Of a stretch of 64,000 bases of DNA, positions 16,841 to 60,583 are shown piece by piece. Numbering within the stretch: the first letter of the stretch is position 1; every line of letters begins with the position of its first letter. Position numbers and translations under genes: made by a program. The stretch is taken from contig NC_090333.1 in NCBI RefSeq assembly GCF_035084215.1, forward strand, positions 58,776,001 through 58,840,000, given 5' to 3'. Below the pieces are notes generated by a model. It searched no databases. It had not been told where the DNA came from and worked only from the letters and a program-made list of their open reading frames with translations. The stretch is from Heptranchias perlo (Eukaryota).

Positions 16841-16878
16841 TTCACCTGACGAAGGGGATAATCTCCGAAAGTTTGTGA
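16841..16878 (+). ncRNA. Minimal type-I hammerhead ribozyme motif (mirror copy on minus strand at about 15959-15996)
   Basis: ttcac-CTGACGA-a-GGGG-ataat-CTCC-GAAA-gt-TT-gtga. Core boxes, stem II and stem I (tcac/gtga) are present; the stem III palindrome AGCT is mutated to AGTT. Confidence 0.75.
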
Positions 16879-19689
16879 TTTTAAAATAAAATTGTTGGAC
16901 TATAACCTGGTGTTGTAAGATTCCTTACATTTGTCCGCCCCAGTCCATCACCGGCATCTCCACATCATCTATACAAGTTTAACATAACTTCCCTGCTTTT
17001 CAATTCTATGCCTCTAGAAATGAACCCTAGTGCTTGGTTTGCCTTTTTTATGCTCTTATTAGCCTGTGTCATTACTTTTAGTGATTTACGTATCAACACC
17101 CCTAGATCCCTTTGCTCCTCTACCCCATTTAGATTCTTATTATTCAATCAATATGTGGCCTCCTTATTCTTCCTACCAAAATGCACAACCTCACACTTAT
17201 CTATATTGAAATTCATTTGCTAATTACATGCCCATTCTATAAGTTTATTAATGTCTTCTTGCATTTTAACGCATTCTTCCTTTGTATTAACTACACCCCC
17301 CAATTTGGTGTCGTCCGCAAATTTTGAAATTGTGCTTCCGATTCCTGAGTCCAAATCATTAATGTAAATTGTGAACAACAATGGTCTCACCACCGATCCG
17401 TGTGGAACACCACTTCCCACCTTTTGTCAGTCTGAGTAGCTACCCTTAACCCCTACTCTCTGTTTTCTGTTTTGTAGCCAGCTTGTTATCCATTCTGCTA
17501 CTTGTTCCCTGACTCCACGTGCTCTGACTCTAGTCATGAGTCTACAATGCGACCTTATCGAAGGCCTTTTGAAAATCCAAATATATTACATTAGCCTTGT
17601 CTACTCTTTCTGTTACTTCTTCAAAGAATTCAATAAGGTTGGTCAAGCATGACTTTCCCTTCTGAAATCCGTGCTGACTATTCTTTATTATATTTTTGTT
17701 TTCTAGATGTTTTTCTATTACATCTTTGAGTAAAGATTCCATTAACTTTCCTATCACCAACATTAAGCTAACTGGTTTAAAATTCCCTGGACTTGTTCTA
17801 TCTCCCTTTTTAAATATAGGAATCACATTAGCTGTCCACCTGTCCTCTGGTATTATTTCCTAAGGGAATAATGCCTCTGCTATCTCTTCCCTAACTTCTT
17901 TTAATATGCACGGATGCAATCCATCCGGACCAGGAGTTTTATCCTCTCTAAGTTTGATTACCTCTCCCCTTTCTATCTTAAATGTCTTAATATCTTTTTT
18001 GATCTCTTCTTCTAATGTCCACCTTGTTAGTCTCCCTGGTAAATACTGAGGCAAAGTAACTTCAATATTTCTGCTATTTCGCTGTCATTACCTGTGAGTT
18101 TATCTTTTGCATCCCTTAATGGCCCTATCCCTATCCTGATTTTTCTTTTGTTATTTATGTATCTGTAGAATACTTTACTATTTCTTTTTATATTCCTTGA
18201 TAGTTTAATTTTGTAGTTCCTCTTCGCTTTCCTAATTATGTTTTTTTTACTTTTTTCCTAACCTCTTTGTATTCCCTTTTGTCATCCTCTCCTTTATTGC
18301 CCGTGTACTTAGAATATGCCTTTGTCTTTAGTTTAAATTTTACCTTTATCTCTTTATTCATCCATGATGTTTCAATATTGGCTAGTTTGTTCTTAATTTT
18401 TAAAGGAATATATTTCTCCTGAACTCTGTTGATCACCATTTTAAATATTTCCCACTGCTGTTCTATCTCTTTGTCTGTCAAAATTTTTTCCATTTCACCT
18501 TCCCTAGTTCTATTCTCATCACCTCAAAATTAGCTTTATTCTAATCTATTACTTTGGTCTTTGTCTTACTTATATCTTTCCCAATCATTAGTTTAAACCT
18601 TATTATGTTGTGATCGCTATTGCCTAGATATTCCCCTATGCTTACTTCTCTTATCTGCTCCAGTTCATTTCCCATTACTAGATCCAGCGGTGATTCCTCT
18701 CTTGTTGGGCTTCTCACATACTGGTTGAGAACGGAATCCTGTACACACTGTAAAAACTCCATTCCTTTTTTCCCTTTCCCTACCTCTTTTTGACAGTTTA
18801 TTTGGGGGTAGTTGAAATCTCCCATGATTATTATTCAATGTTTTTTTACTCAATTCATAGATTTCCCACATATCTCTTCCTCCACTTCCCTTCCACTATT
18901 AGGTGGTCTGTAGAATATACCTATTAATGTGATTGATCCCTTCTTATCCTTTGTCTCAATCCAAATGGATTCTGTTTCTATCTTAATGTTACTTATGTCC
19001 CTTTTTTCTATTGTCATTATGTTGTCTCTAATTAGTACAGCTACCCCACCCCTCCTTCATCCTTCCCTATCCTTTCTAAATACGTTTTATCCTGCAATAT
19101 TTAACTGCCAATCCTGTTCTTTATGTAGCCATGTTTCAGTTACCCATACTACATCTGGCTCCTCACTGCAAATTATTGCCTACAGTTCCCCCATTTTGTT
19201 TTGGATGCTGTGCACATTGTTGTACAGGCAATTTAATTTGTTTTTAATAATTGTTCCCTTCAATTTATTTTTAACAGTCATTTTGTACTCATGTTCTAAA
19301 AATGTATTTGTTCCCTGACCGTTTATGTTACCCTTGTCTGACCTTTACTCTCATCTCCTGTTTCTTTTTTCTTCAGAGTTATGTTATTTTCACCAGATCC
19401 CCCACCCACTTCTCACTAGTTTAAAGTCCTATCCACAGCCCTATTTATCCTTTCTGCTAAGACACTGGTCCCATTCCGGTTCAGGTAGAGCCCGTCCCAG
19501 CGGCACAGCTCCAGTGAATGGTAAGTAACCACATCCAAATTCTTTTCCACTTTTGCTGATGCACATCTCTTCATCATGTGAACCTTTGATGTTTTCTGTT
19601 TTAAAGTACAATTTCTTACATTAATTTCTATTAAAATACATCTGCCATTCCTTAGGCCTATCCGATTGGTCTGGAATTCCTTGAAAGTT

Positions 19690-21720
19690 AGCACTTGCTG
19701 ACACACTGGGACTTACATTAGGGACAATCTATACGTGCAGGGGAGTTTATCGAAGTACGTCAGATGAGGGAACCATAAGCGTCAAACATTATTGGATTTG
19801 CCCCTAATTAATGACAAGTATTCAGCCAAGTTGGAGTATGGGAACATTTAAAAGGAAGGGTATGGATACAAAATGGGAGTGTTTTAAAGAAGTATTTTTC
19901 TTATATTGCCGAGGCAGTTTATCCCAGAAACAGATTAAGGGTTAAACAAGAGAATAAAATTAACATGGATGAAAGAGGATGTCATGGAAGGCATTAGCGA
20001 GAAAGAATGTACAAAATTCTGAAATGTGCAGAGTAGAAACTGAATAGGGAGAACTGTAACACAAAGCAAAGGAAGGCCAAGAAACTGATAAAAGACACAA
20101 ATGGGGAGCACAAGAGGAATATATCAGAAAATATAAAGGACAACAACAAAGCATTCCTTAAGTACATCAAATCTGAGAGAAGGGTATAGAGGGAGATGGG
20201 CTATTTACCAGTGGCAGTGCGGAGATAGTGTCTCAGGCCAGGGAAGTGGCAGAATTCCAAATCATTATTTTGTGACTGTGTTTACCTTTGAAAGGGGAGA
20301 GAGATGCTTGAGTTTGGGAGGAGTAGGAGGGAGAGGGCAGACTGGAAGGCAAATGGCATGTTGGCCTTTATTGCAAGGGGGTTGGAGTATAAAAGTAAGG
20401 AAGTCTTATTACAGTTGTACAGGACACTGGGGAGACCTCACCTGGAGTGCTGTGTACAGTTTTGGTCTCTTTATCTAAGGAAGGATATAATTGCCTTAGA
20501 GACGGTGCAACGAAGGTTCATTAGATTAATTCCTGGGATGAGATGTCCTTTGAAGAGAGGTTGAGCAGAATGGGCCTATACTCTCTGGAATTTAGAAAAA
20601 TGAGAGGTGATCTCATTGAAACATATAAGATTGTGAGGGGACTTGACAGGATAGATGCTGAGAGGCTGTTTCCCCTGGATGGAGAGTCGAGAATTAGGGG
20701 GCATAATAGCAGGATACGGGGTTGGCTATTCAAGACTGAGATGAGGAGGAATTTCTTTAAGCAGAGGATTGTGAATCTTTGGAATTCTCTACCCCAGAGG
20801 GCTGTAGATGCTGAGTCATTGAATATATTCAAGACTGAGATGGATAGATTTTTGGACTCTAGGAGAATCAAGGGATATGGGGATCGCGCAGGAAAGTGGA
20901 GTTGAGGTCGAAGATCAGCCATGATCTGATTGAATGGCAGAACAGACTCGAGGGGCGATATGACCTACTCCTGCTCCTATTTCTTACATTCTTCTGTAGA
21001 AAATTTTAGGAAGCTGAAGGTAAACAAGGCTCAAGGCTCTGACATTTTCCATCAAAGGTGCTGGTGGAATTAACTGAGGAAATTGCTAACCCCTTGACTC
21101 AAAGCTCAATGGAATTGGGTAACATCCTAATGGGTTGGAAAGTAGCAGATATGGCCCTCAATTTTAAAAAGGAGCAAGGGAGGAACACTCAAATTGCTGA
21201 CCTGAGCTCCTTACCTCAATTATATGGAAAGTCTTTAAGACTTAGATAGCAAATGGAAAAAACAGGTCTGATTAGAGAGATCCAACATGGGTTCAGAAGG
21301 GGCAGGCCATGTTTGATCAATTTACTCTGAGTTCTTTGAGGAGATTACAGATCTGGTGGATGTGTGTTATCTACATGGATTTCAGGAAAGCAGTTGATAT
21401 GGTCCCATATAATAGACTAATTCACAAGGTGGGTGCCCATTGGATAGATTAAGCTGAATGATGCATGGTTGAAAGGTAGATAACAGAAGGGGAGGCACAT
21501 GGGGAGTTGTCAGAGTAGAAAACAGTAAATTGCGATTTTTCTAAATGACTTGAAGAACAGAATATTGTCAAAGGTGTCTAAGTTTGTGGTTGACACTAAT
21601 TTGGTGCATAGTCAATAACGTGTGATAATCCAAAGGGATCTGGACGGACTAGATTAATGGGCAGAGGGGTGGCCGATGGAGTTCAACTTGGATAAGTGTA
21701 AAGTAATGAGATTAGAGATG
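19690..21720 (+). mobile_element. Old CR1 fragment with a younger CR1 3' end nested at about 20340-20995
   Basis: Younger copy reads RPHLECCVQFWS...RGDLIETYKI...WNSLPQRAV. Decayed RT motifs continue at 21000-21720. Confidence 0.8.
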
Positions 21721-22369
21721 TCACATTGTGGGGTTTCTGACTATTTATCCACGGAAGGATTTTGGTTAATAAATTAAATTCATCCCATGAGGATTAATCC
21801 ATAATACAGTGTCTGGGGACGTGAATTAAGGATCAACACATGAGGAATTAGGCCCAGCCCAAGCATCTATCTAGTATGGTATTTCTCACATTCCACATCA
21901 GGTTGAGACAGCAGATTCATTAAAACATCCCAGAAATTAGATTGGGTGATTACGCTTCACTGCTCAGGCCCAGTTAAAATACAGTTGTGATTCCATTGAC
22001 ATAATAGGACACCCATTTGTGTTAATTCACAAGGTTCCCGCTCTCTTCTAGCAGGCACCTCAGCCGCCTAACTGCAGTGAGCAGTTAAAATGGTGGCCAG
22101 AGGGATTCTAGTGGGGCAGTAAGGCACATTCTCCATTTTAAGCCTCCCGCTCTGTTCCCATCAGCCAGGGTGGGTTAAATCGGTCCCCTGATCTTTTAAC
22201 TTGTTTATTACTGCAAAAATATGAACAAAATATATTTCAAATAACTCAAAAAGCTTATGTTGCTCAATTACTCAAAACAGTTAATAATCATAATATGTGA
22301 AACCATCAGCCACCAGCTCATTTGACAACCAGCCCCTTACCATCATGCAGGGACTCCTTATATCCTATC

Positions 22370-23235
22370 ATGAGGCTATAGACAGGCTGGTGAAATGGGC
22401 GGACATGTGGCAGATGAAATTTAGCGCAGAAAAATGTGAAGCGATACATTTCGGTAGGAAGAACAAAGAGAGGCAATATAAACTAGAGGGCACAATTCTA
22501 AAAGGGGTAGAGGAACAGAGAGATCTGGGGGTATATGTGCACAAATCATTGAAGGTGGCAGGGCAGGTTGAGAAAGCGGTTAAAAAAGCATACGGGATCC
22601 TGGGCTTTATAAATAGAGGCATAGAGTACAAAAGCAAGGAAGTTGTGATGAACCTTTATAAAACACTGGTTCGACCACAACTGGAGTATTGTGTTCAGTT
22701 CTGAGCACTGCACTTTAGGAAGGATGTGAAGGCCTTAGAGAGGGTGCAGAAAAGATTTACTAGAATGATTCCAGGGATAAGGGACTTTAATTATGTGTAT
22801 AGACTGGAGAAGCTGGGGTTGTTCTCCTTGGAACAGAGAAGATTGAGAGGAGATTTGATAGAGGTATTTAAAATCATGAAGGGTCTAGACAGAATAGACA
22901 GAAACTGTTTCCATTGGTGGATGGGTCAAGAACCAGAGGACATAGATTTAAAGTGATTGGAAAAAGAACCAAAGGTGACATGAGGAAAAACTTTTTTACA
23001 CAGCGAGTGGTTAGGATCTGGAATGCACTGCCCGAGGGGGTGGTGGAGGCAGATTCAATCGTGGCTTTCAAAAGGGAACTGGATAAGTACTTGAAAAGAA
23101 AAAATTTGCAGGGCTACGGGGATAGGGTGGGGGAGTGGGACTAGCTGGATTGCTCTTGCATAAAGCTGGCACGGACTCGATGGGCCGAATGGCCTCCTTC
23201 CATGCTGTAACCTTTCTATGATTCTATGATTCCAT
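22370..23235 (+). mobile_element. CR1 LINE 3' portion
   Basis: WADMWQMKFSAEKCE...RPQLEYCVQF...WNALPEGVVEA; tail ttctatgattctatgatt. Confidence 0.93.
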
Positions 23236-24329
23236 GAGGGATGAAACACAAGCAGCCTTTGGCTTTAGAGGTTTGCTGGTTGCCCAAAGGAATTCCAGAA
23301 ATCTTAAGGTAACAACCAAAATGTTTAATTGAGTATTTTCAGACTCATTAATTAAACAACTGATTTGATTGAATTGCTAACTGAATGTTTCATTTTCATT
23401 AACTGTGTTTATTTGATGCAGCAACAAATTGTGAGTAGACTCGCTGTAATGAGTTCAGCATCACAGGGAACCAAGACTATCACCATTATTAACTCTCTGG
23501 TACATTCACAATGGATAAAAGCTCTTCTGAGGCCAACATTCACTTCAATATAATCCCCTCTGATATATGAACATCTACATTTTATTATAACTGCCTATCT
23601 AATAGAGCAACTATACAAATAGTGGCTTTTAACATGCATCTCCTTTCAGGCATATTGTTATATACTATATCTATATTACAGTCTTGCCTCCAGAGGCAGT
23701 GCCATGACATAAATGGGGTGTAGTCCATGCTTCCACAGGCAGAGAACAATACCACGAAAGGTGGTTTTGTTACCTGCATCCAGTGACCAAGTGCAGATGG
23801 TTGCAGCCCTTTGATTTTCATGTTGCTGGTCAGTACGAACACTCCTCTGACCTTGGTGAAGGTTCATGGTCAGAATGGTAGTGTTTGTGTTTGTGACTTT
23901 TGAACAATTGTGGACACGCAGTTCCAATATTCCAGTCTGTGCTCTGAATCCATCCCATAGTATAAATGGGAAGAATTTGGAACATAGGAAACATTGAAGC
24001 AATGGTGAGGGTCCATTGCAGTTAAATAGCACACAAAGGTAGTGGATTATTTGCCAATATCAGTCATGAACAGAATGTGAGAGCTTATGGGACTGTTGGC
24101 CAAAAGCATCTCAGTGGTGCTGATCAAAAGTATAAATCCATGGAGGAAAAGATACTGCCTCTTACGATCAAATATTAACGATAACTGCTAAGAGCAGGGT
24201 ACATAATCTCCCAAATTATAGCCTTTTATGCTTGTAGCTGTGCATATCCCCTTTTTTCCAATTTGTTCTCAGGAGCAAGGTCACATTCACTGCCCATTCC
24301 TAGTTGCCCTGATAGATTGAGAGGTGATA

Positions 24330-26690
24330 TCATAGTATCATAGTGTGGTACAGTACAGAAAAAGGCCATTTGGCCCATCGTGCCTGTGCCAACTCTTTGA
24401 AATAGCTATCCAATTCGTCCCAATCCACTGCTCTTTCCCCAGAGCCCTGTAAATATTTTCCCTTCAAGTATTTATCTAATTCCCTTTTGAAAATTACTAT
24501 TAAATCTGTTTCCACCATCCTTTCAGGCAGTGCATTCCACATTACAACAACTTACTGCGTAAAAAATGTTTCCTCATGTTGCCTCTGGTTCTTTTGCCAA
24601 TCACCTTAAATCTGTGTCCTCCATTTACTGACCCTCCTATCACTGGAAACAGTTTCTCCTCATTTACTCTATCAAAACCTTTATGATTTTGAACACTCTA
24701 TCAAATCTCCTCTTAATCTTCTCTTCCCCAAGGAGAACAGTCCCAGCTTTTCCAGTCTCTCCACATAACAGTCTCTCCCACAAATCTGGTATCATTCTAG
24801 TAAATCTCTTCTGCACCCTCTGTCAGGCCTTGACATCCTTCCTAAAGTGTGGTGCCCAGAATTGTACACAATACTCTAGCTGAGGCCTAACCAGTGTTTT
24901 ATAAAGGTTTAGCATAACTTCCTTGCTTTTGTACTTTATGCCTCTATTAATAAAGCCAAGGATCTCATATGCCTTTTTAACAGCTTGCTCAACTTGTCCT
25001 GCCACCTTCAAAGATTTGTGTACATACACCTCCAGGTCTCTCTGTTTCCGCACTCCCTTTAAAATTGTGCCATTTAGTTTATATTGCCTCTTCTCATTCT
25101 TTCTACCAAAATGTATCACTTCTCACTTCTTTGCGTTAAATTTCATCTGCCACGTGTCTGCCCATTTCACCAGTCTATATCCTCCCGAAGTCTATTATTA
25201 TACTCCACATTGTTAAATACATTTCTGAGTTTCGTGTTATCTGCAAACTTTGAAATTATACCCTGTACACCCAAGTCCAGGTCATTAATATATATCAAAA
25301 TAGCAATGATCCTAATACCGACCCCTGGGGAACACCACTCCGGTCTGAGCCAATTTTGTATCCATGCTGCCATTGTCCCTTTAATCCCATGGGCTTTAAT
25401 TTTGTTAACAAGTCTATTATGTAGTACTTTATCAAATGCTTTTTGAAAGTCCATGTAAACATCAACCGCACTACCCTCATCAATCCTCTCCGTTACTTCA
25501 TCAAAGAATTCAATCAAGTTAGTCAAACGTGATTTTCCTTTCACAAATCCGTGCTGACTTTCATTTATTAGCTCATACATTTCCAACTGCCAATTAATTT
25601 TGTCCCAGATTATTGTCTCTAAAAGTTTTTCCATCATCGACGTTAGGCTGACTGGCCTGTAATTGCCGGGTTTATCCCTCTCCCCTTTTTTGAACAGGGG
25701 TATGACTTTTACAATCCTCCAGTCCTCTGGCACCAGTCCCATATCTAAGGAGGATTGGAAGATTGTGGCCAAAACCTCCGCAATTTCTACCCTTACTTCC
25801 CTCAGCAACCTAGGATGCATCCTATCTGGACCGGGTGACTTTTCTACTTTGAGTATTGCCAACCTTTTCAGTACTTGCTCTTTATCTATTTTTATTCTCT
25901 CCAATATCACTACTACCTCCTTCTTTACTGTTACATTGGTGAAGTATTCATTTATTACCTAAGCCATATCCTCTGCCTCCACAAGAAGATCTTTTTTGTC
26001 TCTAATTGGACCCACCCTTTCTTTGACTACCATTTTACTATTTATATGTTTATAAAAGAGTTTCGTATTCCCTTTTATGTTAGCTGCTAATCTATTCTCA
26101 GAGCCCCTCTTACTTCCTTTTTTAGATCTCCTCTGTACTTTCTCTATTCAGCTTGGTTCTCTACTATATTATGAATCTTACATTTATCATAAGCCTCCTT
26201 TTTCTGTTTCATTTTAATCTCTGTACCTTTAGTCATCCAGGGAGCTATAGTTTTGGATGCCCTTCCTTTCCCCCTCCTGGGAACGTGACTACTCTGTACC
26301 CGAACCATCTCCTCCTTGAAGGCCTCCCATTGTTTAATTACTCTTTTGCCTACCAATTTTTGATTCCAATCCACCTGGGCAAGATCCCTTTTTAACTCAC
26401 TAATTAGCCCTCCTCCAGTTAAGTATTTTTACATTTGATTGTTCCTTGTCTATGTCCATAAGTATTCTAAACCTGGTGATATTATGATCATTGTTCCCCA
26501 AATGCTTCCCCACTGAAACATGCTCCACTTGCCCCATTTCATTTCCCAGAACTAGATCCAGCACTGCTTCCTTCCACGTTGGGCTGGAAACACACTGATC
26601 AAGAAAGTTCTCTTGTACACATTTCAGGAATTCCTCCTCCTCTTTGCCCTTTACACTGCTACTATCCCAGTCTATATTGGGATAATATCA
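24330..26690 (-). mobile_element. CR1 LINE (endonuclease end, RT, 3' UTR)
   Basis: 247-aa fragment with SPGPDRMHPR, PGNYRPVSLTS and DFQKAFDKV; frameshifted. Confidence 0.93.
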
Positions 26691-26699
26691 TTGCCGGTT

Positions 26700-27220
26700 T
26701 TGGGATTCTGAAGGTACCAGATAACATAGACCATGACAAGCTGTTTCACCTTTTCCAAAATAGTAGAACCAGGGGACAAGGACTGCACTTGAAGAGCGTG
26801 TAAATTCAAAACTAATCTGCGGAAACATTATTTCAGTGAGCGAGTGGTAAATCAATGGAACAGGTTCCCTAGGGAGATGGTGGAAGCAGATAGTGTTGAT
26901 TCATTCAATGAGTGAATTATATAGATTTCTTTCAGAAAATAATATTTTGGGATACAGTATATGAGTAGTTTAAGACATGACATATGGTAAGTGTAGCATG
27001 CTTGGGAGGATCAGGTGACTTTGGATATAAGGTTCCCAAAACTTTCCACTACTAGGGATTTTCCTCATGTCTGGTCAGTTGTAGACTAATTGATGGAAAT
27101 TGATTGCTATGATAAGTCAACAACTCCATTACTGTTTTATCATGCCACTACCAGGAGATAGAAGGTGAACTAGATGGATCTTGGTCTTTTTTTGTCTAGC
27201 AATTCCTATGTTCCTATGAT
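26700..27220 (+). mobile_element. CR1-clade LINE 3' end of a different family
   Basis: SRTRGQGL...RKHYFSERVVNQWN-like coding remnant, longer 3' UTR ending ttcctatgttcctat. Confidence 0.7.
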
Positions 27221-27229
27221 ATAACCGTG

Positions 27230-27505
27230 GTTTGTTAGGCCACTTCAGAGGGCATTAACAGTCAACCACACAGTGTGGTACTGGAGTTATATGTAGGCCA
27301 GATTGGGTAGGGGTAGCAAGTTCCCTTCCCTGAAAGACATTAGTAACCCAGTTAGGCTTTTACAACAATCTGACAACTTTCATGGTGCCAGCCCACAAAT
27401 TACCAGCTTTACTGAATTCAATTTCGTAGCTTGCCATGGTAGGATTTAAACTCATAACCTCTGGTTTGCTAGGCCAGTTGCCATAACCACTGCACTATTG
27501 TACCC
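27230..27505 (-). mobile_element. SINE of the same family as the insert at 45650-45992
   Basis: Reverse complement shares ccatggcaag..., catgaaagttgtcagattgttgtaaaa and actaatgtctttcagggaagg with the 45.7-kb copy. Confidence 0.65.
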
Positions 27506-27509
27506 AGCA

Positions 27510-28005
27510 TAGTCATAGTATCATAGTAGGTACAGCACAGGAGGAGGCCATTCAGCCCATCATGCCTGTGCTGGCTCTTTGAAAGAGCTATCCAATTAAT
27601 CCCTTTCCCCTGCTCTTTCCCTTTCTCTTCAAGTATTTATCCAATTCCCTTTTGAAAATTATTGTTGAATCTGCTTTCACCACCATTCCAGATCAGTGAA
27701 ACTTGCTGTGTAAAAAATGTTTCCTCATGTCGCCTCTGGCTCTTTTGCCAATCACTTTAAATCTGTGTCCTCTGGTTATTGACCCTTCTGCCACTGGAAA
27801 CAGTTTCTCCTTATTTACTCTGTCAAAATTGTTCATGGTTTTGGACATTTCTATCAAATCACCCCTTAACCTTCTCCGATCTAAGGAGAACAACCCCAGC
27901 TTTTCCAGTTTTTCCACATAACTGAAGTCCCTCATCCCTGGCACCATTCTAGTAAATCTCTTCTGCACCCTCTCCAAGGCCTTCACATCTTTCCTAAAAT
28001 GTGGT
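27510..28005 (-). mobile_element. CR1 LINE 3' end
   Basis: PHFRKDVKALERVQKRFTRMVPG...RGHRFKVIGKR. Confidence 0.9.
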
Positions 28006-43702: not shown

Positions 43703-44252
43703 CACCTGCAAAACACAATAACACTCCAAAAAAATAACTGGCACTGTGCAGCATTTATCCTTAACTCGATACAGCACTAAAACTTCATAGATCATTGATC
43801 ATCATAGATCTTACAAATTATGTTCTGATTTATATCCTTAACGATAAAGAATTTTGGAAGAAAGTTTTCAAGTCATGTTTTGTGTATGTCCAAAATAAAT
43901 ATTAATTTACATTATTAAATATATTTTTATATAATGCAGCCATTTACCAATAAATTTTAAAGAGTAGCAAAATATTTATGTAAACTCAATGAACTGAAGA
44001 AATTATTAGAAATTAGTCAGTGGTGGACAATATTCATTTTCCAAAATAGAATTGCAGTACTATAAAACCTAACTCACTCAGCGTTCAAGAAAAACAGGCA
44101 AAATTTACAGTACCTTTTTTAATATCAAACTTAACTACTGATGGAGACACGTAACATGTAAATGTTCTCTGCGCATGCTCCAGATTATTGTACAGGTATC
44201 ATTGAGGCATATAGAACTGACACAGAAATTAAATGCAACCTATCTCATTTCA

Positions 44253-44458
44253 AATGTAAGGAGTCGTACAACACCAGGTTATAGTCCAACAGCTTTATTT
44301 AAAATCACAAGCTTTCGGAGCTTTGCTCCTTCGTCAGGTGACGAAGGAGCAAAGCTCCGAAAGCTTGTGATTTCAAATAAAGCTGTTGGACTATAACCTG
44401 GTGTTGTACGACTCCTTACATTTGTCCACCCCAGTCCATCACCGGCATCTCCACATCA
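44253..44458 (+). mobile_element. Miniature fold-back Penelope-like insertion in the CYB5RL 5' intron
   Basis: Arms 44251-44336 and 44339-44424 (86 bp, one mismatch, 2-nt loop). 34-nt tail ending ccggcatctccacatca. 12-bp TSD tatctcatttca at 44241-44252 and 44459-44470. Confidence 0.92.
44305..44341 (-). ncRNA. Minimal type-I hammerhead ribozyme motif
   Basis: Minus strand reads tcac-CTGACGA-a-GGAG-caaag-CTCC-GAAA-gc-TT-gtga: intact core, 4-bp stem II, palindromic AGCT stem III. Confidence 0.8.
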
Positions 44459-45484
44459 TATCTCATTTCAGCCTGGCATTCTTAATCTTCTCATCAAATA
44501 ATTTTCATTCTGTGTACTTTTCTGATAAGAATTGCTACTGTGAATCTTTGTTGGTCCCCTCTGCTACTTTATCTCGGTATATTTCACACCCCAGTACGCC
44601 TGAGCTAATGATCTAGCTGTCTGTATTGGATCCATTTCATATAGAACCAGTCGGCACTGCATCCATTTAATAAATTCTGATCAATGACACAGCAATCGGT
44701 GTACTAGTGTTACTAAGGGCAGCCCGTCAATAAATTACCTAATCCATAATTAACTTTCAAATCCAAAATCATTGGCAGGAAGCTTAAATTGCAGGAAAAT
44801 TCATTTATTATATATAGGTAGTCTACAGAATTATATAGAGTAGAATATTTATCAATGAAAATACAAACCTGTTAAAATTGTGATAATGAGCTAACTTATT
44901 CACTTCCATCACTTGTGGCTATCGTTTTTCGGACCGAAAACACCAGTGATGGGTACCAACACTGGATAGGGTAAGGACAAAAAAAAATGAAATTAATAAT
45001 TAAACAATAGCTTCTACAACAATTCTAAACAAGAACTACTACCAAATGATATTTACTAAAAATGAAAATTGCCAATATGAGTAATTTTTATTAACTTCAG
45101 CGATAGATGTTATTAATTCGGGCAACATACTTTATTCTGTAGGGAAATGGCTTGTCAGTATATTTTATAATCACCCCATTCTGTGACACATTCAATTCCC
45201 TGTAGCTGGGTCTCTGCCTTTACCACTTGAACTGTCCACTGCTTGCCCTGTGAAGACAGGATTGGCTTCTGTATACACCACCCACTAACAGCGTAACTCA
45301 GGTCAGGGAATTGTTGAGTGGGGAACTGAGAGCAGGAAGTTGCATGCTTGTGCTCTGTGACACAGCAACAAAAACAAACCATGTCACCTGAGGCTATACA
45401 GCCATTTCTACTCATGCTTCACAGGGTTCCAATATTTAATTTGTGGTAGACAGCTACTTAATGATTAATCATTTTTCTTTCCAA

Positions 45485-50636: not shown

Positions 50637-50820
50637 GTGTTAAACAAGCTCTTTGGCTGACCAAGTCTAAGCTGATAGAGGGCCTTCCTAAGCAGATATT
50701 AAGCATAGCCGAAGATCCTGTGAATCACATTGAAGACCAGGACGAGCGGGTTAAGGCAGCTATCAGTCATGCTCGTTTTTGGACCACCACTGAAATACGT
50801 CCCAAAAGAGATCGGTTTTG
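50637..50820 (+). CDS. MRPL37: MRPL37 exon 2
   Basis: (G)[48 protein letters not shown]...DRF(C). Boundaries ttccag / gtgag, 184 nt. Confidence 0.95.
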
Positions 50821-53192
50821 GTGAGCAGGCATGCCGCTGTTAAACGTGTTAAAGTTTGAATTTTTCTTTGTGCAGTTCTTGGGGGGAAAAAATGCTGCAC
50901 GGTAAAAGGATTTCATCTAAAGTGGGAAAAATTAAGAGATATTCCTAATAGTGTTAGGAGATGGACCAGCCTACAGAACCGTACCTCAGCTCAAGTCAGC
51001 GCCGTCGAGGGGGGGGGAGGAGAAAACTTAGACAGCAAACCAAAAGTAATACTGTGATATGTTTGCAGTTGGTTTGATGGAAGTTTGGGTCATTTGTATA
51101 GATCATGTAAACTAAAATAGAAAAACTAGGGTGTTACTGAGATTATAAAGCATAATATTGTATTAGGAATCCTTAACCTACTGCAGCTTCTCTATTCCAC
51201 TCGAATACCTGCATTTAGTACATCAGAAGACTCAAATTGTGATATTGAACTCTAACAAGATTAGAGTCTGATTGTCCGATCAGAGGTTGCCAAATTTGTA
51301 GTAATTGGTCTATCAGTTAAGCATGTTTTCTAATTATGTATATTACAGATGTGAAACCTGAGCTATGGCATGACTATAGATTGATCTTCTATTTAAAATG
51401 TTAATTCCTTTTTTATGGCTCCTCACGCTACACTCTACCCCAGCCAAGAGAAACACAGATGGCTGATTATGATGCTTATGTTATTTATCTTGTTGCTCAT
51501 GGGGAATCAAGCTGCTTTTATATTGTTCTTGTGCCGCTGGCAATATTGTTAAACTAACTTCATTGGATTTTTAAGATCAATGGCTGGGAAGACTTTTTTA
51601 TTTAACTGGGTCTTCCTGATTGCTCCATTTTGCAGTAACTGCACTGTTCCAACTGCATCAGTGTCATTCTGGTAGTTATGACATGACGCCAATATATATA
51701 CAAGGCACTTCCCTGTTGTGATATAATGGTCTCAGTTGTTGGTGACAAAGGCAGTCTGTGCACGTGCAAAATGCTGGGACCCACCTTTGCAGCCAGTCTG
51801 TAGCGAGACCAGCTACACTTTTCAGACAGAAAAGAGTGGTCCATGCGGGTTGCTCTCCCAAGACCCATTGATAACATAAAAGCAGCTATAGGCCAAATCT
51901 GTGCCTTGCTGTTTCATGGTACAGAGCACCACTGCACGTCTCAGCCTCAGATCTTTACGTTGTTCCATAATTGCATCAGTAAATTAATTCACCTGTAAGA
52001 ATTCAGACTGTTTAAGACTGTGTGCTTCTGATCATTTTTTAAAAATCTTAATTGAATGGACTTTTCAGCAAATGCTGTTAATCCTGGAGGTTTGTTCCAG
52101 CTCAATAACAATTATGAAGTAGTAGCTGTAAATTGCTGATATTTTTTGTCGTGGTTTATAGTCTCACAATACTTAGGCTGGATCTGACTGTGTTCTTAAA
52201 AGTCTCCTATTCTTAATAGATTTTACATTTTTACAAACATACAAAAAGGATTTAAACACAGGCAGACCTATTAATACACAATCTATCGACTAGGTCAGGG
52301 TGGATAAATTTTGAGTTTGAGTGGAAAAAAATTATATCTGGCAAACAACCACAATTTCATCCATTCATTCTCTTTCTCTCATGCTTTTATAAAAATCTTG
52401 TGTGCACTTCATGCCAACAAGCATTACTTCCCTTTGTCATGATTTTTGGTAACTTTTATGTCAACATTTACAATTAAAACTGCCAATGCAATTTATAATG
52501 GCAATTCTGTATGTAAACAGTTGCATGTCATGGTGGACTCTAGCCTCCCACCACTTGTGGAGTGAGTCATATCCTCCCCATTAGCCAGCATTTTAGTTTC
52601 CCTTGAAGATAGTGTATTTTTCCCTTGTTTATTGAGTGTTTAAAATTCAGCTTTCAAGTTTTCCCCCTGATCAACTGCACACTGAGGACCCCCTTGTAGG
52701 GAAAGTCTGCAACTGCCTGATTTGAGACTGGGGCCTACCCATCCTGTTGGCTTTCCTTTGTGGCATAGTGCAGAGATTTCCAGTTGGAGACGTGTGGGAA
52801 AAGCAGTGAGTAGGCTACATATGTTAACACAATAATGTAACCCCCACACAAAGTGGCACACCACCATAAAGAAAAGAAACAGAGACTTAGCAAAGCTCTC
52901 CTCCTCCTCTCTTTCCCCCCCCCCCCCCCCCACCAACCAAATCATCCTTCCCCTCCTTTTCCTCCATCCTCGCAATCCCTTGAAGCATGGTTCTTTCACT
53001 TTTCTCTTGCAGCCTGCTCCTTTTCTGGTTCCTTCTCCTGCTGCTCTGTATGTGTTCCTATCTTCTTCCCCTTCCCTGGTCATAAGTTGGCTGGCTATAG
53101 GCATAACACAATTCCTTACAGGATTTGAAATTGAAGAATTGGCTGGTGCAGCGAGTTAGTGCACTGTCCTTTCACATCTGATAGAAGAAAAA

Positions 53193-53609
53193 AAAGACTT
53201 GCATTTTTATAGCAATTTTCATGACCTCAGGACATCCCAAAGCGCTTTACAGCAGTGAAGTACTTTTGAAGTGTAGTCACTGTTGTAATGTAGGAAACGC
53301 GGCAGCCAATTTGCACACAGACACAATGAGATAATGACCAGATAAGCTGTTTTAGTGATGTTGGTTGACTGATAAATATTGGACAAGAACTCCCCAGCTC
53401 TTCTTTGAAATAGTACCAGGGGATCTTTTAAGTCCACCTGAGAGGGCAGACGGGGCTTCAGTTTAATGTCATCTCCGACAGTGCAGCACCCCCTTAGTAT
53501 TGTTCTGGAGTGTCAGCCTGGATTTTGTGCTCAAGTCCCTGGAGTGGGACTTGAACCCACAATCTTCTGACTCAGGCGAGAGTGCTAACACTGAACCACG
53601 ACTAACACC
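53193..53609 (-). mobile_element. SacSINE1-like SINE nested in an LF-SINE-like relic
   Basis: Full Deu-SINE sequence. Flanks 53139-53180 and 53610-53730 resemble the LF-SINE head and body. Confidence 0.82.
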
Positions 53610-53960
53610 TGATGGAATGAAACACTTTCTGCTAGCTTGAAAGGTATTTGAAATAAGTTTTCACTGTCTCAATCTAGTTGCTAAAAGGTATGAGCCCACA
53701 GCACAAAACTGTCCCTTAATTGGCACAAAAAATGGTGAACTCACTTCAAGAGGTCGTAAGGATAACTTATGTACGAAGTATGAAATTTCACATTGATGTA
53801 GTTGGGGATGCTGTTCTGAGTTTGGGATGGATTGGAGGAAGCTTCAATTCAGCTGGCTGATATACTTGATCTTGGACTGTAAACTGACACTGGATGACAA
53901 AATGGAGGGGAAGTGAGAGACAGCGTTCTTGTTAATTTTTGTGATGTTTTTCCTTTTCAG

Positions 53961-54076
53961 CCCTGTGCTGTTGCAGGATCTCTTACACTTGTGCAGGACC
54001 CTGCAGCCTCGATTTCCCGCACTTGGAAACAGGATGCTGGCTGAAAATTACCGTGTGGCAGCAATATGGGAGAGAG
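53961..54076 (+). CDS. MRPL37: MRPL37 exon 3
   Basis: PVLLQDLLHLCRTLQPRFPALGNRMLAENYRVAAIWER. Boundaries ttttcag / gtcag, 116 nt, phases match neighbours. Confidence 0.92.
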
Positions 54077-55254
54077 GTCAGTCAGTGGGACTTCTGTTTG
54101 AGTAGCACTGTGTAAGAATGTCTTTGCTCATGGGCATCACCAGAAAAGGAAAAGGGGCAATCCTTTTCTAGGATGTATTCTCACCCACTGCAAATGCAAC
54201 ACTCTTCTGCGTCATTTCTAACAAAAACAAAATGTGGTTTTGCCCATTCATGGAAACTGTTGACAATATCCCACAAATACATTTGCTTACATGACATCAG
54301 TAATTGTACTTCAAAAATATTATTACTGGAAAGCTCAAACACTTCAATAAATACAGGTATATTATAATATGAACTGATTTTTTCATAAGATTAATTTACT
54401 AATTAATGTTTTTATGTGCTTAATATAAATTATTTCTATTTTTAATGCTTTGAAGTAAAAGCAAACAAAAAGAAATGAATCTTTAAGGCTGGTTTGGGCT
54501 GTATGTTTATTACTTTGCAGTGCCCGTAGGTATTTAATAAAAATAATTAGATTAGGCAGTTAGGAAACCTTTATTTCCTGCTCAGATTTTCTGGTTATGA
54601 TCAACATAAGTCGTTAGTTAATGTAACAGAAGGTACCAGGAACAGCCAGCTAATGATTAATCAAATATTATATTTTATATGTTTTGTAAAACAAAGAAGA
54701 ACCTGAATCAGAAACTGAGGACTCAACACCTAGATTTTAGTATAGCTTATGCATTAACCCTTTGAAGATTCCAGAAGCAATTTTTTCATCAAAATAATTG
54801 AATGGGTAATGGATATACACTTGAAAAGGAAAATTTTGAAGGGCTATGGAGAAAGAGCAGGGGAATGGGACTAATTGGATAGCTCTTTCAAAGGGCCAGC
54901 ACAGGCACGATGGGCTGAATGGCCTCCTGTGGTATATAATTCCATAGAAGTATTTTTCAAAACTTTGAGTAAGAAGCATTCAGTGCATTTACTGTGCCAA
55001 AAAATAAATATAGGGCAGTTAGGTGCCCTCCTGCTACCTCAGTTGACAAATGCACTTTCTATTGTGAAGTTGAGCCATATCGCCTTGAACGTTCCAGGTT
55101 TGAACCCAGTCTGTGCTGAGTTAGCTGATTATGATCTCAGCCAAGCACGCATTTATTGGCCATAGCACAGCTGAAAAACAGAAAAGATTCCTGTTATTCA
55201 GCAACTCTAACTGGAATGAAAAAGGAAGTAGGTACCCGAAAAGAAAAGCTAGGT

Positions 55255-55360
55255 TCAGTTTTGATGAAGGGTTTATACCCAAAATTATGATCTGTCCTCT
55301 CTATTTTCAGATGTTGATTGACCTGCTGTGTGCTTCCAGCATTATTCAGATTTTCAACAT
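55255..55360 (+). mobile_element. Decayed Penelope pseudo-LTR of a second family with a hammerhead relic
   Basis: tTGATGA-a-GGGT-ttat-ACCC-aAAA followed by cagatgttgattgacctgctgtgtgcttccagcatt. From memory this resembles a common elasmobranch Penelope terminal repeat. Confidence 0.55.
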
Positions 55361-55369
55361 TTGAAGTTT

Positions 55370-56250
55370 TTCATAGAATCATAGAAAGTTACAGCACACA
55401 AGGAGGCCATTCGGCCCATCGTGTCTGTGACGGCCGAAGAAGAGCTATCCAGCTTAATCCCACTTTCCAGCACTTGGTCCGTAGCCCTGTAGGTTACGGC
55501 ACTTCAGGTGCACATCCAAGTACTTTTTAAATGAGTTGAGAGTTTCTGCCTCTACCACCCTTTCAGGCAGAGAGTTCCAGACCCCCACCACCATCTGGGT
55601 GAAAAAAATTCTCCTCTGCTGCCCTCTAATCCTTCTCCCAATTACTTTAAATCTATACCCCTGGTTATTGACACCTCTGCTAAGGGAAATATGTCCTCCC
55701 TATCCACTCCATCTGGTCCAGTCATAATTTTATATACCTCAATTAAATCTCCCCTCAGCCTCCTTTGTTCCAAAGAAAACATCTCCAGACTATCCAATCT
55801 TTCTCATAGCTAAAATTCTCCAGCCCTGGCACCATCCTCGTAAATCTCCTCTGTCTCCTCTCTAGTGCAATCACATCTTTCCTGTAATGTGGTGACCAGA
55901 ACTGTACGCAGTACTCAAGCTGTGGCCTAACCAATGTTTTATACAGTTCTAGCATAACCTCCCTGCTCTTATATTCTATGCCTCAGCTAATAAAGGAAAG
56001 TATCCCGTATACCTTTTTAACCACCTTATCTACCTGTCCTGCTACCTTCAGGGATCTGTGGATATGCATTCCAAGGTCCCTTTGTTCCTCTACACCTCTC
56101 GGTATCCGCCTATTTATTGTGTATTCCCTTGCTTTGTTTGCCTTCCCCAAATGCATTACCTCACGCTTCTCTGGATTGAATTCCATTTGCCATTTTTTTG
56201 CCCACTTGACCAGTCCATTGAAATCTTCCTGCAGTCTACAGCTTTCCTCA
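55370..56250 (-). mobile_element. CR1 LINE 3' portion in MRPL37 intron 3
   Basis: WAKKWQMEFNPEK...RPQLEYCVQFWSPHYRKDVIALER; catagaatcatagaa tail. Confidence 0.92.
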
Positions 56251-56385
56251 CCCATGAAGCTGTACCCAAGCAAGGAGTCAGCACCCTCAGGAAAGGGAAA
56301 ATTATAGGGCAGCTGATTGTACAAGACTGTGGCTCAAGTCCTTTTGTCAGTTCACTGTTTAATGAATATTTTCTTCTCTTTGCAG

Positions 56386-56571
56386 AGTCTGACATATTCC
56401 GGGTTTGTGGTTTGAATGGAATCCTCTTGAGTAGTAAGCAGCCTTTACCAGCAGTAGCAGGAAAAGAAGAGATATTAAGCACTGAAAGCCACGCCCTCCC
56501 GTCCTTCTATCCCATCTCTCCTAACATTGACCTGCAGCAAACACATGTCTATGAAGTACGCAATGATACAG
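56386..56571 (+). CDS. MRPL37: MRPL37 exon 4
   Basis: (E)SDIFRVCGLNGILLSSKQPLPAVAGKEEILSTESHALPSFYPISPNIDLQQTHVYEVRNDT(G). Boundaries tttgcag / gtggg, 186 nt. Confidence 0.94.
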
Positions 56572-57036
56572 GTGGGTTTTTTGATAGAAGGTTCTTTGGT
56601 ACAAGTCCTGTAGTGTGACTGGCAGGAAATAGTTTCTTATCCATCATTCACCAATCAATGGGGAAGGTGAAAAAAAATCAGTCTACCAGCATTGTTCACA
56701 TGCACCTTAGCACTCATTTAGAGAGTTAAATTGGCAAAACCCTGAGTATCACTTGCTTGTTTGTGCTGTTAATGGGGACTAGTATGGTGAAGGGACTGTA
56801 GGAAGGAAAGAAATATCCCTAATGGTGCATAAAAGGGATAAATGTCATCTGAAAATTATTTTAAAATTTCAGTTTAATAATGTTATTTTTGAGAAAATGA
56901 AAGTGTATTTTAATTTTAGACAATCAAGCACTCTCAAGTCAGTGGGGTTTACTTGCAGTGTTCTTTACGTAGTTAGCACCTCCTACATATATATTCCTCT
57001 CACCCATTTACAAATCTCTTAATTGTGTTGATACAG

Positions 57037-57191
57037 GTTTCCGTGATGGGTACCCTTTTCCTCACGCGCACACACTGTATATTACAGAGTCCTCTATTAC
57101 CATGGCAAGGTTCAAACCAGAACCACTGAGGGCCAAGATGATCATGTTCACATTTGCAAATGCCCTAGCAAGGGCCAAGCTGCTTTATGGT
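57037..57191 (+). CDS. MRPL37: MRPL37 exon 5
   Basis: (G)FRDGYPFPHAHTLYITE...LRAKMIMFTFANALARAKLLYG. Boundaries atacag / gtaagt, 155 nt. Confidence 0.94.
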
Positions 57192-57832
57192 GTAAGTGTT
57201 GGTGTCTCTGGTACAAATAGTGCAATCTGTATCAGTTAAAGTAGGAATTCCACTTATAATTAATATGTTTGTGTGGTTAAAAGTACTTGAATTTGGTAGT
57301 GCAATGGCATTCAACTTTAGCTCCGTACCATTTAGTGGTATGGTGCCAATGGAAGCTGTTGCATCTCCCAGTTGGGGAGCAGGAAAAATCAGAAGGGAAC
57401 GTCCCACCTGGCATCTACTAGCAAATCATTGCAGGAAGCATGGCTGCGGCTCACTGAAACCCCTTTATCTGTAAGTTAAGTGTGGTGGATAAAGGGGTTT
57501 ACTCAGATAAACAGTCCCATGAGGGCAAGAAAAATTGGAATTTCCTAAAAACACAATCTATATCTAACCTAACAGGCTTTTAATGCACAGCTCAGCTAAA
57601 ATATTCTGTATAATTATGTTCAGTTGTTTATAGTGTGATATATTATAGAGAACTTTGAATTTAATGTCTGACTTCTCTTCACATAATTGAATGTAGCTGA
57701 AATGATCTGGAATCATGTTTATTGTACTGATTGTTTCATCTGTAATGTATGGAATAGAATAAAACATTGTTTTGCAACTGTTGAGAGCTGATAGCAGGTG
57801 CACCTGCTAACTTACTATTTTCTACCTCACAG

Positions 57833-58036
57833 GAGGAGCCAAAGGTGTTGGACAATCCTATCACAGTACAATGTATTGCTACGAATGGAAGGATGTTCCA
57901 GTTCCTGGTGTTACAGCTAAATACCACAGATCTACAATCAAATGATGGTGTGAAAAACCTAATTTGGTTGGACCAAGATCAGCTGCTGTACGACTATGCA
58001 AAGTGCCTCCCAACAATCAGAAAGAAAATAGTCCAG
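57833..58036 (+). CDS. MRPL37: MRPL37 exon 6
   Basis: EEPKVLDNPITVQCIATNGRMFQFLVLQLNTTDLQSNDGVKNLIWLDQDQLLYDYAKCLPTIRKKIVQ. Boundaries ctcacag / gtaagt, 204 nt. Confidence 0.95.
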
Positions 58037-58566
58037 GTAAGTACAAGTGGAATTGTCAGGGAAGTGATGCTTAATAAAAGGTTTCAGCAATGGCAGTGAA
58101 ACATTTTTGTATCAGTGTTTACCTGCCCTGCACGCTGATGGCGGCAGCCTTCCATTACCTCACCCTAATAGCTAGTCCTCGAGAGGCATGTCATTGGGTT
58201 AGTTCTTATGTGGATGTCACACTTTACAGCAGTGTAGGAACCTTGGCTGATTTTTTTTCTCTCGCTTGCTCTCCTAGCCCTATTGTATTGTCTCACCATC
58301 ACAATGACTGAGCTCAGCCTACTCAGCTGAGACCAAGGACTGAACTTACTGTGCATTTAACTGAGCACTTTGATCAGTTTCAATGAGCTAGTAAACTTGG
58401 ACCTTATTGTAAGTAAGCTTTCTTCATGGTTTGCATCATATGAGTCCCACACTAAGTTAATTGGACAAGGTTTCTGCAGAAGAGTTGTAAGATTTTTTGT
58501 TTCCAAAACTTGTAGATCATTGTGTTATCTGCGTGTGTTCAGAGATTGATGGTTTCTTCTCTCTAG

Positions 58567-58644
58567 GTTCCTGCTGGGCTGTCTGGATATTGTCCAGAGA
58601 CATTCAGTAAGTTCCTTGCCTTGTACTTGCACGGAGCTGTATAG
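58567..58644 (+). CDS. MRPL37: MRPL37 last exon
   Basis: VPAGLSGYCPETFSKFLALYLHGAV*, matching the known FLALYLHGA C-terminus. The seven exons sum to 1248 nt (415 aa + stop). Confidence 0.94.
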   Translation, partial: VPAGLSGYCPETFSKFLALYLHGAV

Positions 58645-60340
58645 AATCACATGGACAACAGTTCACTCTTATCATGAAGAACTGTTACTTACCTGGAAAT
58701 GTCAGGGAAACAAAGGAGCTTGGTTGGATACCAGCAGAAGAAATAGACTGTAAACTGATATGAAGTACAAACAACAGTGTAGACATAGACAAAATCAATA
58801 TTGCATGGACTTTTATAAAGAGACTTTTATGAGCTGAGACATTAGTGTATGTTCAAGACTATGATCTTCATTTCAAGATGGAAACTTTGTGGATAATGCT
58901 ACTTTATTAAATATTTTTTTCACAATCTGTGTAATGTTCATTTGTACCATAATGCCCAGTTTCAGCCCAAGACAGCATCTGTACAACAGAAACAATGCAC
59001 TAACTAAAGCAAGTGCCAAGATAAATGTATTCCTTTTATATGTTGTAAAAAAGTCCATCTCTAATATTTTAGCATTTTCAATTTCAGTTGCTAAACAAAA
59101 TTGCAACTTAATTCATGTGAAAAACTCTAGCCCCTCGTATAATGTCGCATCCCTATTAAAATTCATATGTCGGCCATGTGCTCCATTGAAAATTGCTATG
59201 TAAACATTTTTTATTGGAATTCCAATATGTCCCAATATTAATATATCCACAGTTACCTGTCATGCAACTAAGTCATACTTTAATTGGATTTCCACTGTTC
59301 ACCTGGACATATCACCATGTGCTGCTGTGTTATCATTTCCCTACAACTCACTCAAGTGCTTGCTGAAAACAATATCTGCCATTTTTCTTCAATGAAGTTT
59401 CTAATGTCCAAAATAAGGTTTAACAAAAAAATTTAAATTGTTTACATATTTCACAACAGGAATTAAGTTTGTCTATTAATTTACTTTCTAATACCTTTAT
59501 TAAAGTTTCTACCTGAAGGCCTCAGCCAGATGTGTGGGGCCATTTCTCAGGACGCATCAGTACCAAACTGCTAAACTGCTGCAATATTCTTCTTTAGCTT
59601 CTAGTAGTTTGTACGGTTTTTCAGAATTATGGAGAGAAAGGCTAAAAGACAAGCTTTAGTCAAGTAAAGTTTGTATTAGCCTCTTTTTAAAAAAAAAATA
59701 CCCATGTATGAGTAAAATGTACACTAAATACACACTTGTTGTAGCTTGTGTTCTATACATATCAAAGTGTATTAAGTGGATAGTCTTTACTTATCCTAAT
59801 TTAGGATCATTTTTCAAAAAATGAATTTTGAAGCCAAAAGCAAACCTAATTATTGCCTGTATTTTATTAACTGTTAAAGTATAAAAATTTTAATTACTGA
59901 CATCTGTGAATCAGACACAGCTAGAGGCAGACATATGTTATGCTAAAACGGCATATGGGATCCTGGGCTTTATAAATAGAGGCATAGAATACAAAAACAA
60001 GGAAGTTATTCTAAACCTTTATAAATCACTAACTTTGGGCACCACACTTTAGGAAGGATGTCAAGGCCTGGGAGAGGGTGCAGAGGAGATTTACTAGAAT
60101 GGTACCAGGGATGAGAGACTGGCGACACTGGGATTTTCACCTTAGAGAAGGTTAAGGGGAGATTTAATAAAGGTGTTCAAAATTATGAAGGGCTTAGATA
60201 GGGGGAAATTGTCTCCACTGGCAGGAGGGACGACAACCCGAGGACACAGATTTAAGATAATTGGCAGAAGAGCCAGGCTGGTTATTTTTTTTAAACACAG
60301 CAAGTTGTTACAATCTGGAATACACTACCTGAAAGGATGA

Positions 60341-60583
60341 TGATGTGGAGATGCCGGTGATGGACTGGGGTTGACAATTGTAAACAATTTTACAACACCA
60401 AGTTATAGTCCAGCAATTTTATTTTAAATTCACAAGCTTTCGGAGGCTACCTCCTTCCTCAGGTGAACGATGTGGAAATCGTTTCCACATCGTTCACCTG
60501 AGGAAGGAGGTAGCCTCCGAAAGCTTGTGAATTTAAAATAAAATTGCTGGACTATAACTTGGTGTTGTAAAATTGTTTACAAG
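60341..60583 (-). mobile_element. Miniature fold-back Penelope-like insertion nested in a CR1 LINE
   Basis: Perfect arms 60378-60478 and 60482-60582 (101 bp, loop tcg). 37-nt tail tgatgtggagatgccggtgatggactgggg.... TSD tgaaaggatga at 60330-60340 and 60584-60594. Confidence 0.92.
60493..60531 (+). ncRNA. Minimal type-I hammerhead ribozyme motif (mirror copy on minus strand at 60429-60467)
   Basis: ttcac-CTGAGGA-a-GGAGG-tag-CCTCC-GAAA-gc-TT-gtgaa: 5-bp stem I, 5-bp stem II, AGCT palindrome. Confidence 0.82.

What the first reader, a model, noticed from the sequence alone, without database searches (positions are those of the whole stretch)
16841..60531. Hammerhead stem II co-varies between three subfamilies while the catalytic core is fixed
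Seen: stem II/loop is GGGG-ataat-CTCC, GGAG-caaag-CTCC and GGAGG-tag-CCTCC in the three copies. CTGAnGA varies only at the free N7 position, and the extra A, GAAA and stem I (tcac/gtga) are kept. Stem III is reduced to the palindrome AGCT with a predicted CUU cleavage site. Established: such minimal hammerheads fold poorly as monomers and cleave as dimers. Inference: RNA structure is under selection in the active PLE lineages.
Basis: partly seen in the sequence, partly recalled or inferred. Interest (0 to 1): 0.7.

Follow-up and report, generated by a model that had tools for sequence, protein, structure and literature searches.

The report
Conserved hammerhead ribozymes in a retrotransposon
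These motifs are a known kind of predicted self-cutting RNA carried by a very abundant jumping gene (about 77,000 exact matches in this genome); the core stays unchanged and the stems stay paired across its lineages, so the fold is likely under selection, which is an already described pattern.

Summary
The motifs are real: minimal type-I hammerheads in the pseudo-LTR of a Neptune-type Penelope-like element (PLE). The window has six motif copies in three inverted insertions with 12-15 bp target duplications, not three single copies. The three-copy evidence is weaker than stated. Stem II pairs 1-4 show one one-sided change (A-U to G·U). The fifth pair is unpaired in 15 of 84 sampled arms. Copy A has AGTT, not AGCT.

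Genome-wide data rescue the inference. There are 76,914 exact cores. On a 57-row tree built without the ribozyme, the core has 0 lineage-level changes against 10 private ones, and all 12 lineage-level stem changes keep pairing. Three pairs run A-U, G·U, G-C with the wobble intermediates present. The number of independent events is small, and the stem test loses significance after correction. An intact 902-aa element has hammerheads 3,080 nt apart, as the dimer model needs. 5' breakpoints do not pile up at the predicted cut (9 of 85). Cleavage is untested. Cervera and de la Peña (2014) described this motif type and its covarying families, so this is a new member of a known kind, notable mainly for copy number.

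The parts
15903..16969 (.). Insertion A: 5'-truncated PLE, arms 15903-16304 and 16533-16934 100% complementary, tail on the right arm; 15-bp target duplication 15898-15912 / 16968-16982
16230..16511 (-). C-terminal end of the GIY-YIG endonuclease frame (WYIGET...), with stop codon
   Evidence: 150 of 150 scored genome matches 100% identical
15959..15995 (-). Minimal hammerhead, copy A, left arm (stem III AGTT)
16842..16878 (+). Minimal hammerhead, copy A, right arm: stem I 5' strand, core, extra A, stem II GGGG/CTCC, AGTT, stem I 3' strand
16879..16969 (+). Rest of the pLTR and tail; holds a predicted 6-bp hairpin (about 16914-16929) with its own G-C/A-U swap; in full-length copies the tail runs into the ORF start codon
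44251..44459 (.). Insertion B: short palindromic PLE end, arms 44251-44336 and 44339-44424, tail to 44459; 12-bp target duplication 44241-44252 / 44459-44470
44305..44341 (-). Minimal hammerhead, copy B, intact core (stem II GGAG/CTCC, loop CAAAG)
44334..44370 (+). Copy B partner arm; C3 is replaced by G at the inversion junction
60339..60585 (.). Insertion C: short palindromic PLE end, arms 60375-60478 and 60482-60585, tail on the left arm; 13-bp target duplication 60330-60342 / 60584-60596
60430..60466 (-). Minimal hammerhead, copy C, left arm
60494..60530 (+). Minimal hammerhead, copy C, right arm (N7 = G, loop GTAGC)

Best explanation
The motifs are minimal type-I hammerhead sequences in the pseudo-LTR of a high-copy Penelope-like retrotransposon with Neptune-type protein motifs, and their fold is likely kept by selection in the lineages that transposed, because two hammerheads 3.1 kb apart on one transcript are predicted to pair through the AGCU palindrome and would cut after CUU. 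Shown: element anatomy, intact 902-aa ORF between two direct hammerheads, fixed core and pairing-preserving stem changes on internal branches. Inferred: dimer formation with swapped stem I strands, cleavage (probably slow and helped by the element's protein, as in the anole element), and release of a unit-length RNA. The six window copies are truncated passengers; read-through RNA would fold into long perfect hairpins, so they are unlikely to be active.
For: Core: 0 internal against 10 terminal changes, versus 13 and 16 for N7 plus loop (Fisher p=0.016; 0.017 after merging two arms of one insertion); 12.9 internal changes expected at the flank rate. Stems I and II: 12 of 12 internal changes keep pairing; 100% of cells paired in both helices over 15 distinct rows, three pairs with double-sided change and G·U intermediates. 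Of 2,718 cores with position 11.3 not T, 90 of 100 listed have G10.3-C11.3 and 3 have A·C (counted by eye). The palindrome has no propagated variant. Full-length pLTR-ORF-pLTR in L132 with hammerheads 3,080 nt apart; three cores at 3,081-nt spacing on C1. Dimer half-junction energy -8.5 to -9.6 kcal/mol with AGCU in winB, winC and L004, -7.4 in L132, -0.8 with copy A's AGUU. Published: PMC4209133 (low but detectable dimer cleavage), PMC11167929 (protein-assisted cleavage, lost in C3G and G8C mutants).
Against: No cleavage was measured. 5' breakpoints are not enriched at the predicted cut: 9 of 85 within 3 nt, 12 expected, p=0.87. The paired-site test is p=0.037 raw but p=0.21 after correction (11/0 against 8/3). 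The G-C family at pair 3 is one evolutionary event, not 2,400. Five of the eight stem I/II pairs never change on both sides, and four never vary. The downstream pLTR is at least as conserved (105,204 exact 21-mers), so conservation alone is not specific to catalysis. Part of the tree sample was picked with core-requiring patterns, which would hide lineages with altered cores. In the anole element, catalytic mutants did not reduce insertion in vitro and no RNA-seq reads ended at the cut (PMC11167929).
Confidence: 0.78

Rival explanations
1. The hammerhead fold is kept as a binding or folding signal for the element's RT-endonuclease protein (or as part of the pLTR promoter), and cleavage is incidental or lost.
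For: No breakpoint pile-up at the cut. The downstream pLTR and tail are equally conserved and carry their own compensated hairpin. Catalytic mutants did not affect insertion in vitro for the anole PLE (PMC11167929).
Against: Change is confined to exactly the positions that are free in hammerheads (N7, loop II, stem interiors), while all 11 core positions and G10.1-C11.1 are fixed across clusters about 36% apart in the flanks. The palindrome that only a dimer needs is also fixed.
Confidence: 0.17
2. There is no selection on structure: the families are young and similar, and a few transitions happen to leave G·U or Watson-Crick pairs.
For: Few independent events; all internal stem changes are transitions, half or more of which keep a pair by chance; corrected paired-site test p=0.21. 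Terminal stem changes also keep pairing in 7 of 11 cases.
Against: 0 internal core changes where 12.9 are expected at the flank rate and where loop II changed 12 times. A·C at pair 3 is at background level while G·U and G-C families are abundant.
Confidence: 0.05

Closest known systems
Minimal hammerheads (min-HHR) of metazoan PLEs, Cervera and de la Peña 2014 (PMC4209133; read parts 1-2 of 4: abstract, results, discussion, start of methods)
   Same: [quoted passage not shown]
   Different: Copy number: 76,914 exact cores here against about 9,000 in Xenopus and 4,000 in coelacanth (different search methods, not directly comparable). Stem II is 4-5 bp, not 7-8 bp as in Schistosoma. No C3-G8 to U3-A8 core swap seen in the samples. 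No cartilaginous fish is named in the parts read; supplements not seen.
Neptune clade of EN+ PLEs (Craig et al. 2021, PMC8557442; passages read)
   Same: [quoted passage not shown]
   Different: Placement by RT phylogeny against Neptune and Nematis references was not done; Nematis also has a linker finger.
Poseidon of Anolis carolinensis (Frangieh et al. 2024, PMC11167929; read parts 1-2 of 4)
   Same: Hammerhead in the pLTR and genomic tail that marks internal start of reverse transcription.
   Different: There the ORF starts inside stem II and the tail lies in the ORF; here the start codon is about 90 nt downstream of the predicted cut, at the end of the tail. Poseidon lacks the linker finger.
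Animal non-LTR retrozymes (bioRxiv 10.64898/2026.07.22.740005; passages and section 14 read)
   Same: Type-I hammerheads derived from PLE pLTRs; found in one chondrichthyan genome; dimers tested for cleavage.
   Different: Retrozymes are short non-coding direct tandem repeats; the window copies are inverted, truncated ends of a coding PLE.

Membership tests
PLE minimal hammerhead | Core CUGANGA...GAAA...UH in type-I order closed by stem I | tested here: met
   (five of six window motifs; one lacks C3 at an inversion junction)
PLE minimal hammerhead | Extra nucleotide between 9 and 10.1; G10.1-C11.1 pair | tested here: met
   invariant at family level
PLE minimal hammerhead | Palindromic 15.2-16.2 with no loop III | tested here: met
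   76,914 AGCT cores against 512 with 16.2 changed; window copy A is one of the exceptions
PLE minimal hammerhead | Located in the pLTR, two direct copies flanking the ORF | tested here: met
   L132: hammerheads at 3440 and 6520 around a 902-aa ORF
PLE minimal hammerhead | Compensatory changes in stems among families | tested here: met
   three pairs with double-sided change; few events, corrected test not significant
PLE minimal hammerhead | Self-cleavage as a dimer | not testable with these tools
   only contigs, no raw reads, were offered; breakpoint proxy negative
Rfam hammerhead families | Match to a curated covariance model | tested here: not met
   no hammerhead family at E<=1 in the window; expected for motifs without stem III (inference)
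EN+ Penelope-like element | RT followed by C-terminal GIY-YIG with CCHH cysteines between GIY and YIG | tested here: met
   Pfam RVT_1 E=3.6e-10; VVYLIRCRKGCPGAWYIG read; the 89-aa EN piece gave no Pfam hit, so EN is by motif
EN+ Penelope-like element | Partial tandems, inverted 5'-truncated copies, tail at one end | tested here: met
   52 of 100 arms have a divergent inverted partner within 4.5 kb; 2 direct pairs at 2.9-3.3 kb; tail on one arm in all three window insertions
Neptune clade | CX2-5CxxC finger in the RT-EN linker | tested here: met
   C-x4-C-x2-C in L152-L154
Neptune clade | RT groups with Neptune references in a tree | not tested
   no reference PLE proteins were fetched

The most novel reading that the evidence does not exclude
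This genome holds one of the largest hammerhead ribozyme families in a vertebrate (about 77,000 exact cores, one per 42 kb), from a recently active PLE whose lineages still show each A-U, G·U, G-C step in three base pairs. It would serve as a natural mutational scan of the minimal dimeric hammerhead, with a second compensated hairpin at the reverse-transcription start and intact tandem elements ready for assay.
Probability: 0.4. Interest if true: 0.45.

Novelty: new member of a known kind. Interest (0 to 1): 0.28.

Why it matters
Why PLEs keep weak hammerheads is open: in vitro activity is low and the anole element transposes in vitro without cleavage. This family separates lineage-level change from decay after insertion within one genome and shows that the catalytic positions are the constrained ones, which argues that cleavage matters in vivo. 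It also offers intact, nearly identical tandem elements for direct tests. The motif class and its covariation are already published, so the gain is scale and a test system, not a new mechanism.

Tried and rejected
Rfam scan: only hairpin-like microRNA look-alikes of the palindromes, no hammerhead. DNA searches of the genome with copies B and C returned nothing because common words are skipped; patterns were used instead. Cleavage footprint in 5' breakpoints: 8,318 genome matches to a truncation-selecting pattern, 100 examined, 13 dropped (core still present) and 2 outside the zone; 9 of 85 within 3 nt of the cut, no enrichment. Fifth stem II pair as a conserved pair: rejected, A·C and G·G lineages exist. 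AGTT as a family trait of copy A: rejected. CpG strand-symmetry test at N7-G8: N7T 1,792 against G8A 1,064; in the expected direction, but both lists are spread over all loop types and neighbour-base effects or G-to-T changes could explain it, so inconclusive. At C11.1-G12 the two decay products were 5 and 5 of 100 arms (by eye). Public runs: contigs only, RNA status a guess, so no transcript ends or expression could be shown. Lünse et al. (PMC5785218) is not held; it is known here only through a review passage and reference (PMC6765202). Earlier scan findings: none. R-scape was not available; no covariance model was built because within-genome diversity is low and the genome cannot be scanned whole.

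Full report
Observation. The core differs only at N7, and the extra A, GAAA and TCAC/GTGA are shared. Three details are wrong or missing. Copy A has AGTT in place of AGCT. Each copy is one arm of an inverted pair, so the window has six motifs, five with an intact core. And the first four pairs of stem II show just one one-sided change among the three copies (A-U to G·U); the double-sided differences are at a fifth pair. Rfam has no hammerhead hit at E<=1.

What the element is. Each pair is one insertion with a target duplication of 15, 12 and 13 bp. Insertion A holds the end of a GIY-YIG endonuclease frame; 150 of 150 scored genome matches to it are 100% identical. L132 holds a full element: hammerhead, rest of the pLTR, tail ending at the start codon, 902-aa open frame, 3' UTR, and a second hammerhead 3,080 nt after the first. 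The protein has an RT domain (Pfam RVT_1, E=3.6e-10), a C-x4-C-x2-C linker and two cysteines between the GIY- and YIG-like motifs. By the criteria in PMC8557442 (passages) this is a Neptune-type PLE; no RT tree against references was made. The genome is 3.25 Gb. That it is a cartilaginous fish is my guess from recalled repeat types and comes from no call.

Abundance. An exact core pattern with free stems has 76,914 matches, a tighter one 38,098, and a 21-nt stretch of the downstream pLTR 105,204; reversed controls give 0. Matches are arms, not insertions: 52 of 100 sampled arms have an inverted partner within 4.5 kb, and only 2 direct pairs at 2.9-3.3 kb were among them. Three cores at 3,081-nt spacing are listed on C1.

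Is the core fixed? From all loci held I took 288 arms in 178 groups. 83 had the ORF end; 26 over-sampled ATAAT-loop rows were dropped and 57 went into a tree built from ORF end and 3' UTR without the ribozyme. Ribozyme types follow clades. Parsimony gives 0 internal and 10 terminal changes at 11 core positions, against 13 and 16 at N7 plus loop II (p=0.016; 0.017 corrected), with 12.9 expected at the flank rate. Clusters defined without the ribozyme differ by about 36% in the flanks and share the core (115 insertions clustered, 56-78 in clusters of three or more). Caveat: part of the sample came from core-requiring patterns. In the flank-anchored sample of 100 arms, 81 parsed as hammerheads, and the 19 others were 16 truncations or inversions and 3 single core mutants by eye.

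Do the stems covary? All 12 internal changes at paired positions keep pairing; terminal changes keep it in 7 of 11 (p=0.037). After treating two arms of one insertion as private and dropping a row selected by its mismatch, this is 11/0 against 8/3, p=0.21. On 15 distinct hand-picked representatives, stems I and II are 100% paired. Stem II pair 3 occurs as A-U, G·U and G-C; stem I pair 3 as C-G, U·G and U-A; stem I pair 4 as U-A, U·G and C-G (the shuffle control there ignores relatedness and the rows were chosen by type). The unbiased test is: of 2,718 cores with 11.3 not T, 90 of 100 listed are G-C, 3 are A·C and 7 are other mismatches scattered over families. This G-C family is not in the window and counts as one event. 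The fifth pair is optional: 15 of 84 parsed arms are unpaired. The palindrome has no propagated variant: 512 matches with 16.2 changed, none of 100 listed compensated. A CpG test gave N7T 1,792 against G8A 1,064, in the expected direction but open to context effects.

Mechanism. Stem III has no loop, so a monomer cannot form it (sequence). Two copies can pair through AGCU and swap stem I strands; the half-junction scores -7.4 to -9.6 kcal/mol with AGCU and -0.8 with copy A's AGUU. In a tandem transcript the two pLTR hammerheads would cut after CUU and release a 3.08-kb unit (inference from PMC4209133 and the review PMC6765202). The anole study found cleavage only with the element's protein, no need for it in insertion in vitro, and no RNA-seq ends at the cut (PMC11167929). 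I looked for a footprint of cleaved templates in 5' breakpoints and found none: 9 of 85 within 3 nt, 12 expected. The window copies themselves would fold into long hairpins if transcribed through (-155 to -865 kcal/mol). Public runs were contigs only and show neither ends nor expression.

Known versus new. Cervera and de la Peña (PMC4209133, parts 1-2 of 4 read, supplements not seen) list the same four traits, including families with compensatory changes, and report such motifs in fish Neptune elements. A 2026 preprint (passages and section 14 read; bioRxiv supplements closed) reports hammerhead retrozymes in one chondrichthyan. Five full-text searches showed no paper on this family, but the library lacks subscription papers and repeat databases were not searched. 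Verdict: a real, well-supported, ordinary member of a known kind. What stands out is the copy number and the visible wobble intermediates. Interest 0.28.

Noticed in passing
window 16914-16929 and relatives (alignment A1, columns 77-92): A predicted 6-bp hairpin at the pLTR end has a G-C / A-U double swap between the two main lineages (6 against 9 of 15 rows); it lies where tail-less copies end and may guide the start of reverse transcription.
   Followed up: partly
window 16514-16549: A 12-nt unit of the endonuclease end is repeated about three times at the inversion junction of insertion A, suggesting repeated template re-priming.
   Followed up: no
G000:C1:21304062, 22693674, 33604680: Several inversion junctions join the reverse complement of the stem I 5' strand to its 3' strand, i.e. 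template switches that use stem I complementarity; several others are centred on the AAGCTT palindrome.
   Followed up: partly
G000:C1:4461019-4467212 and 4435533-4438646: Head-to-tail cores at 3,081-3,082 nt spacing, all of the young AAAAT-loop type; likely full-length tandem arrays.
   Followed up: no
L148-L151 (G000:C1:3.93-4.00 Mb): PLE ends are embedded in a larger repeated unit with GA-rich tracts and were duplicated with it.
   Followed up: no
runs X5, X11, X22 laid on window 16700-16975: Three other organisms hold the downstream pLTR and tail, with loose ends that look like the same hammerhead with other loop II letters; the family is not confined to this species.
   Followed up: partly
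window 12948-13187: Inverted repeat with 74-nt arms, 95% complementary, unrelated to the PLE by the self-search; possibly a small DNA-transposon relic.
   Followed up: no
window 13572-15905, 22384-25176, 27528-28005, 54784-55945, 59941-60757: Many fragments of one LINE-like 3' region (CR1/L2-like by recall); insertions A and C sit inside or next to such fragments.
   Followed up: no
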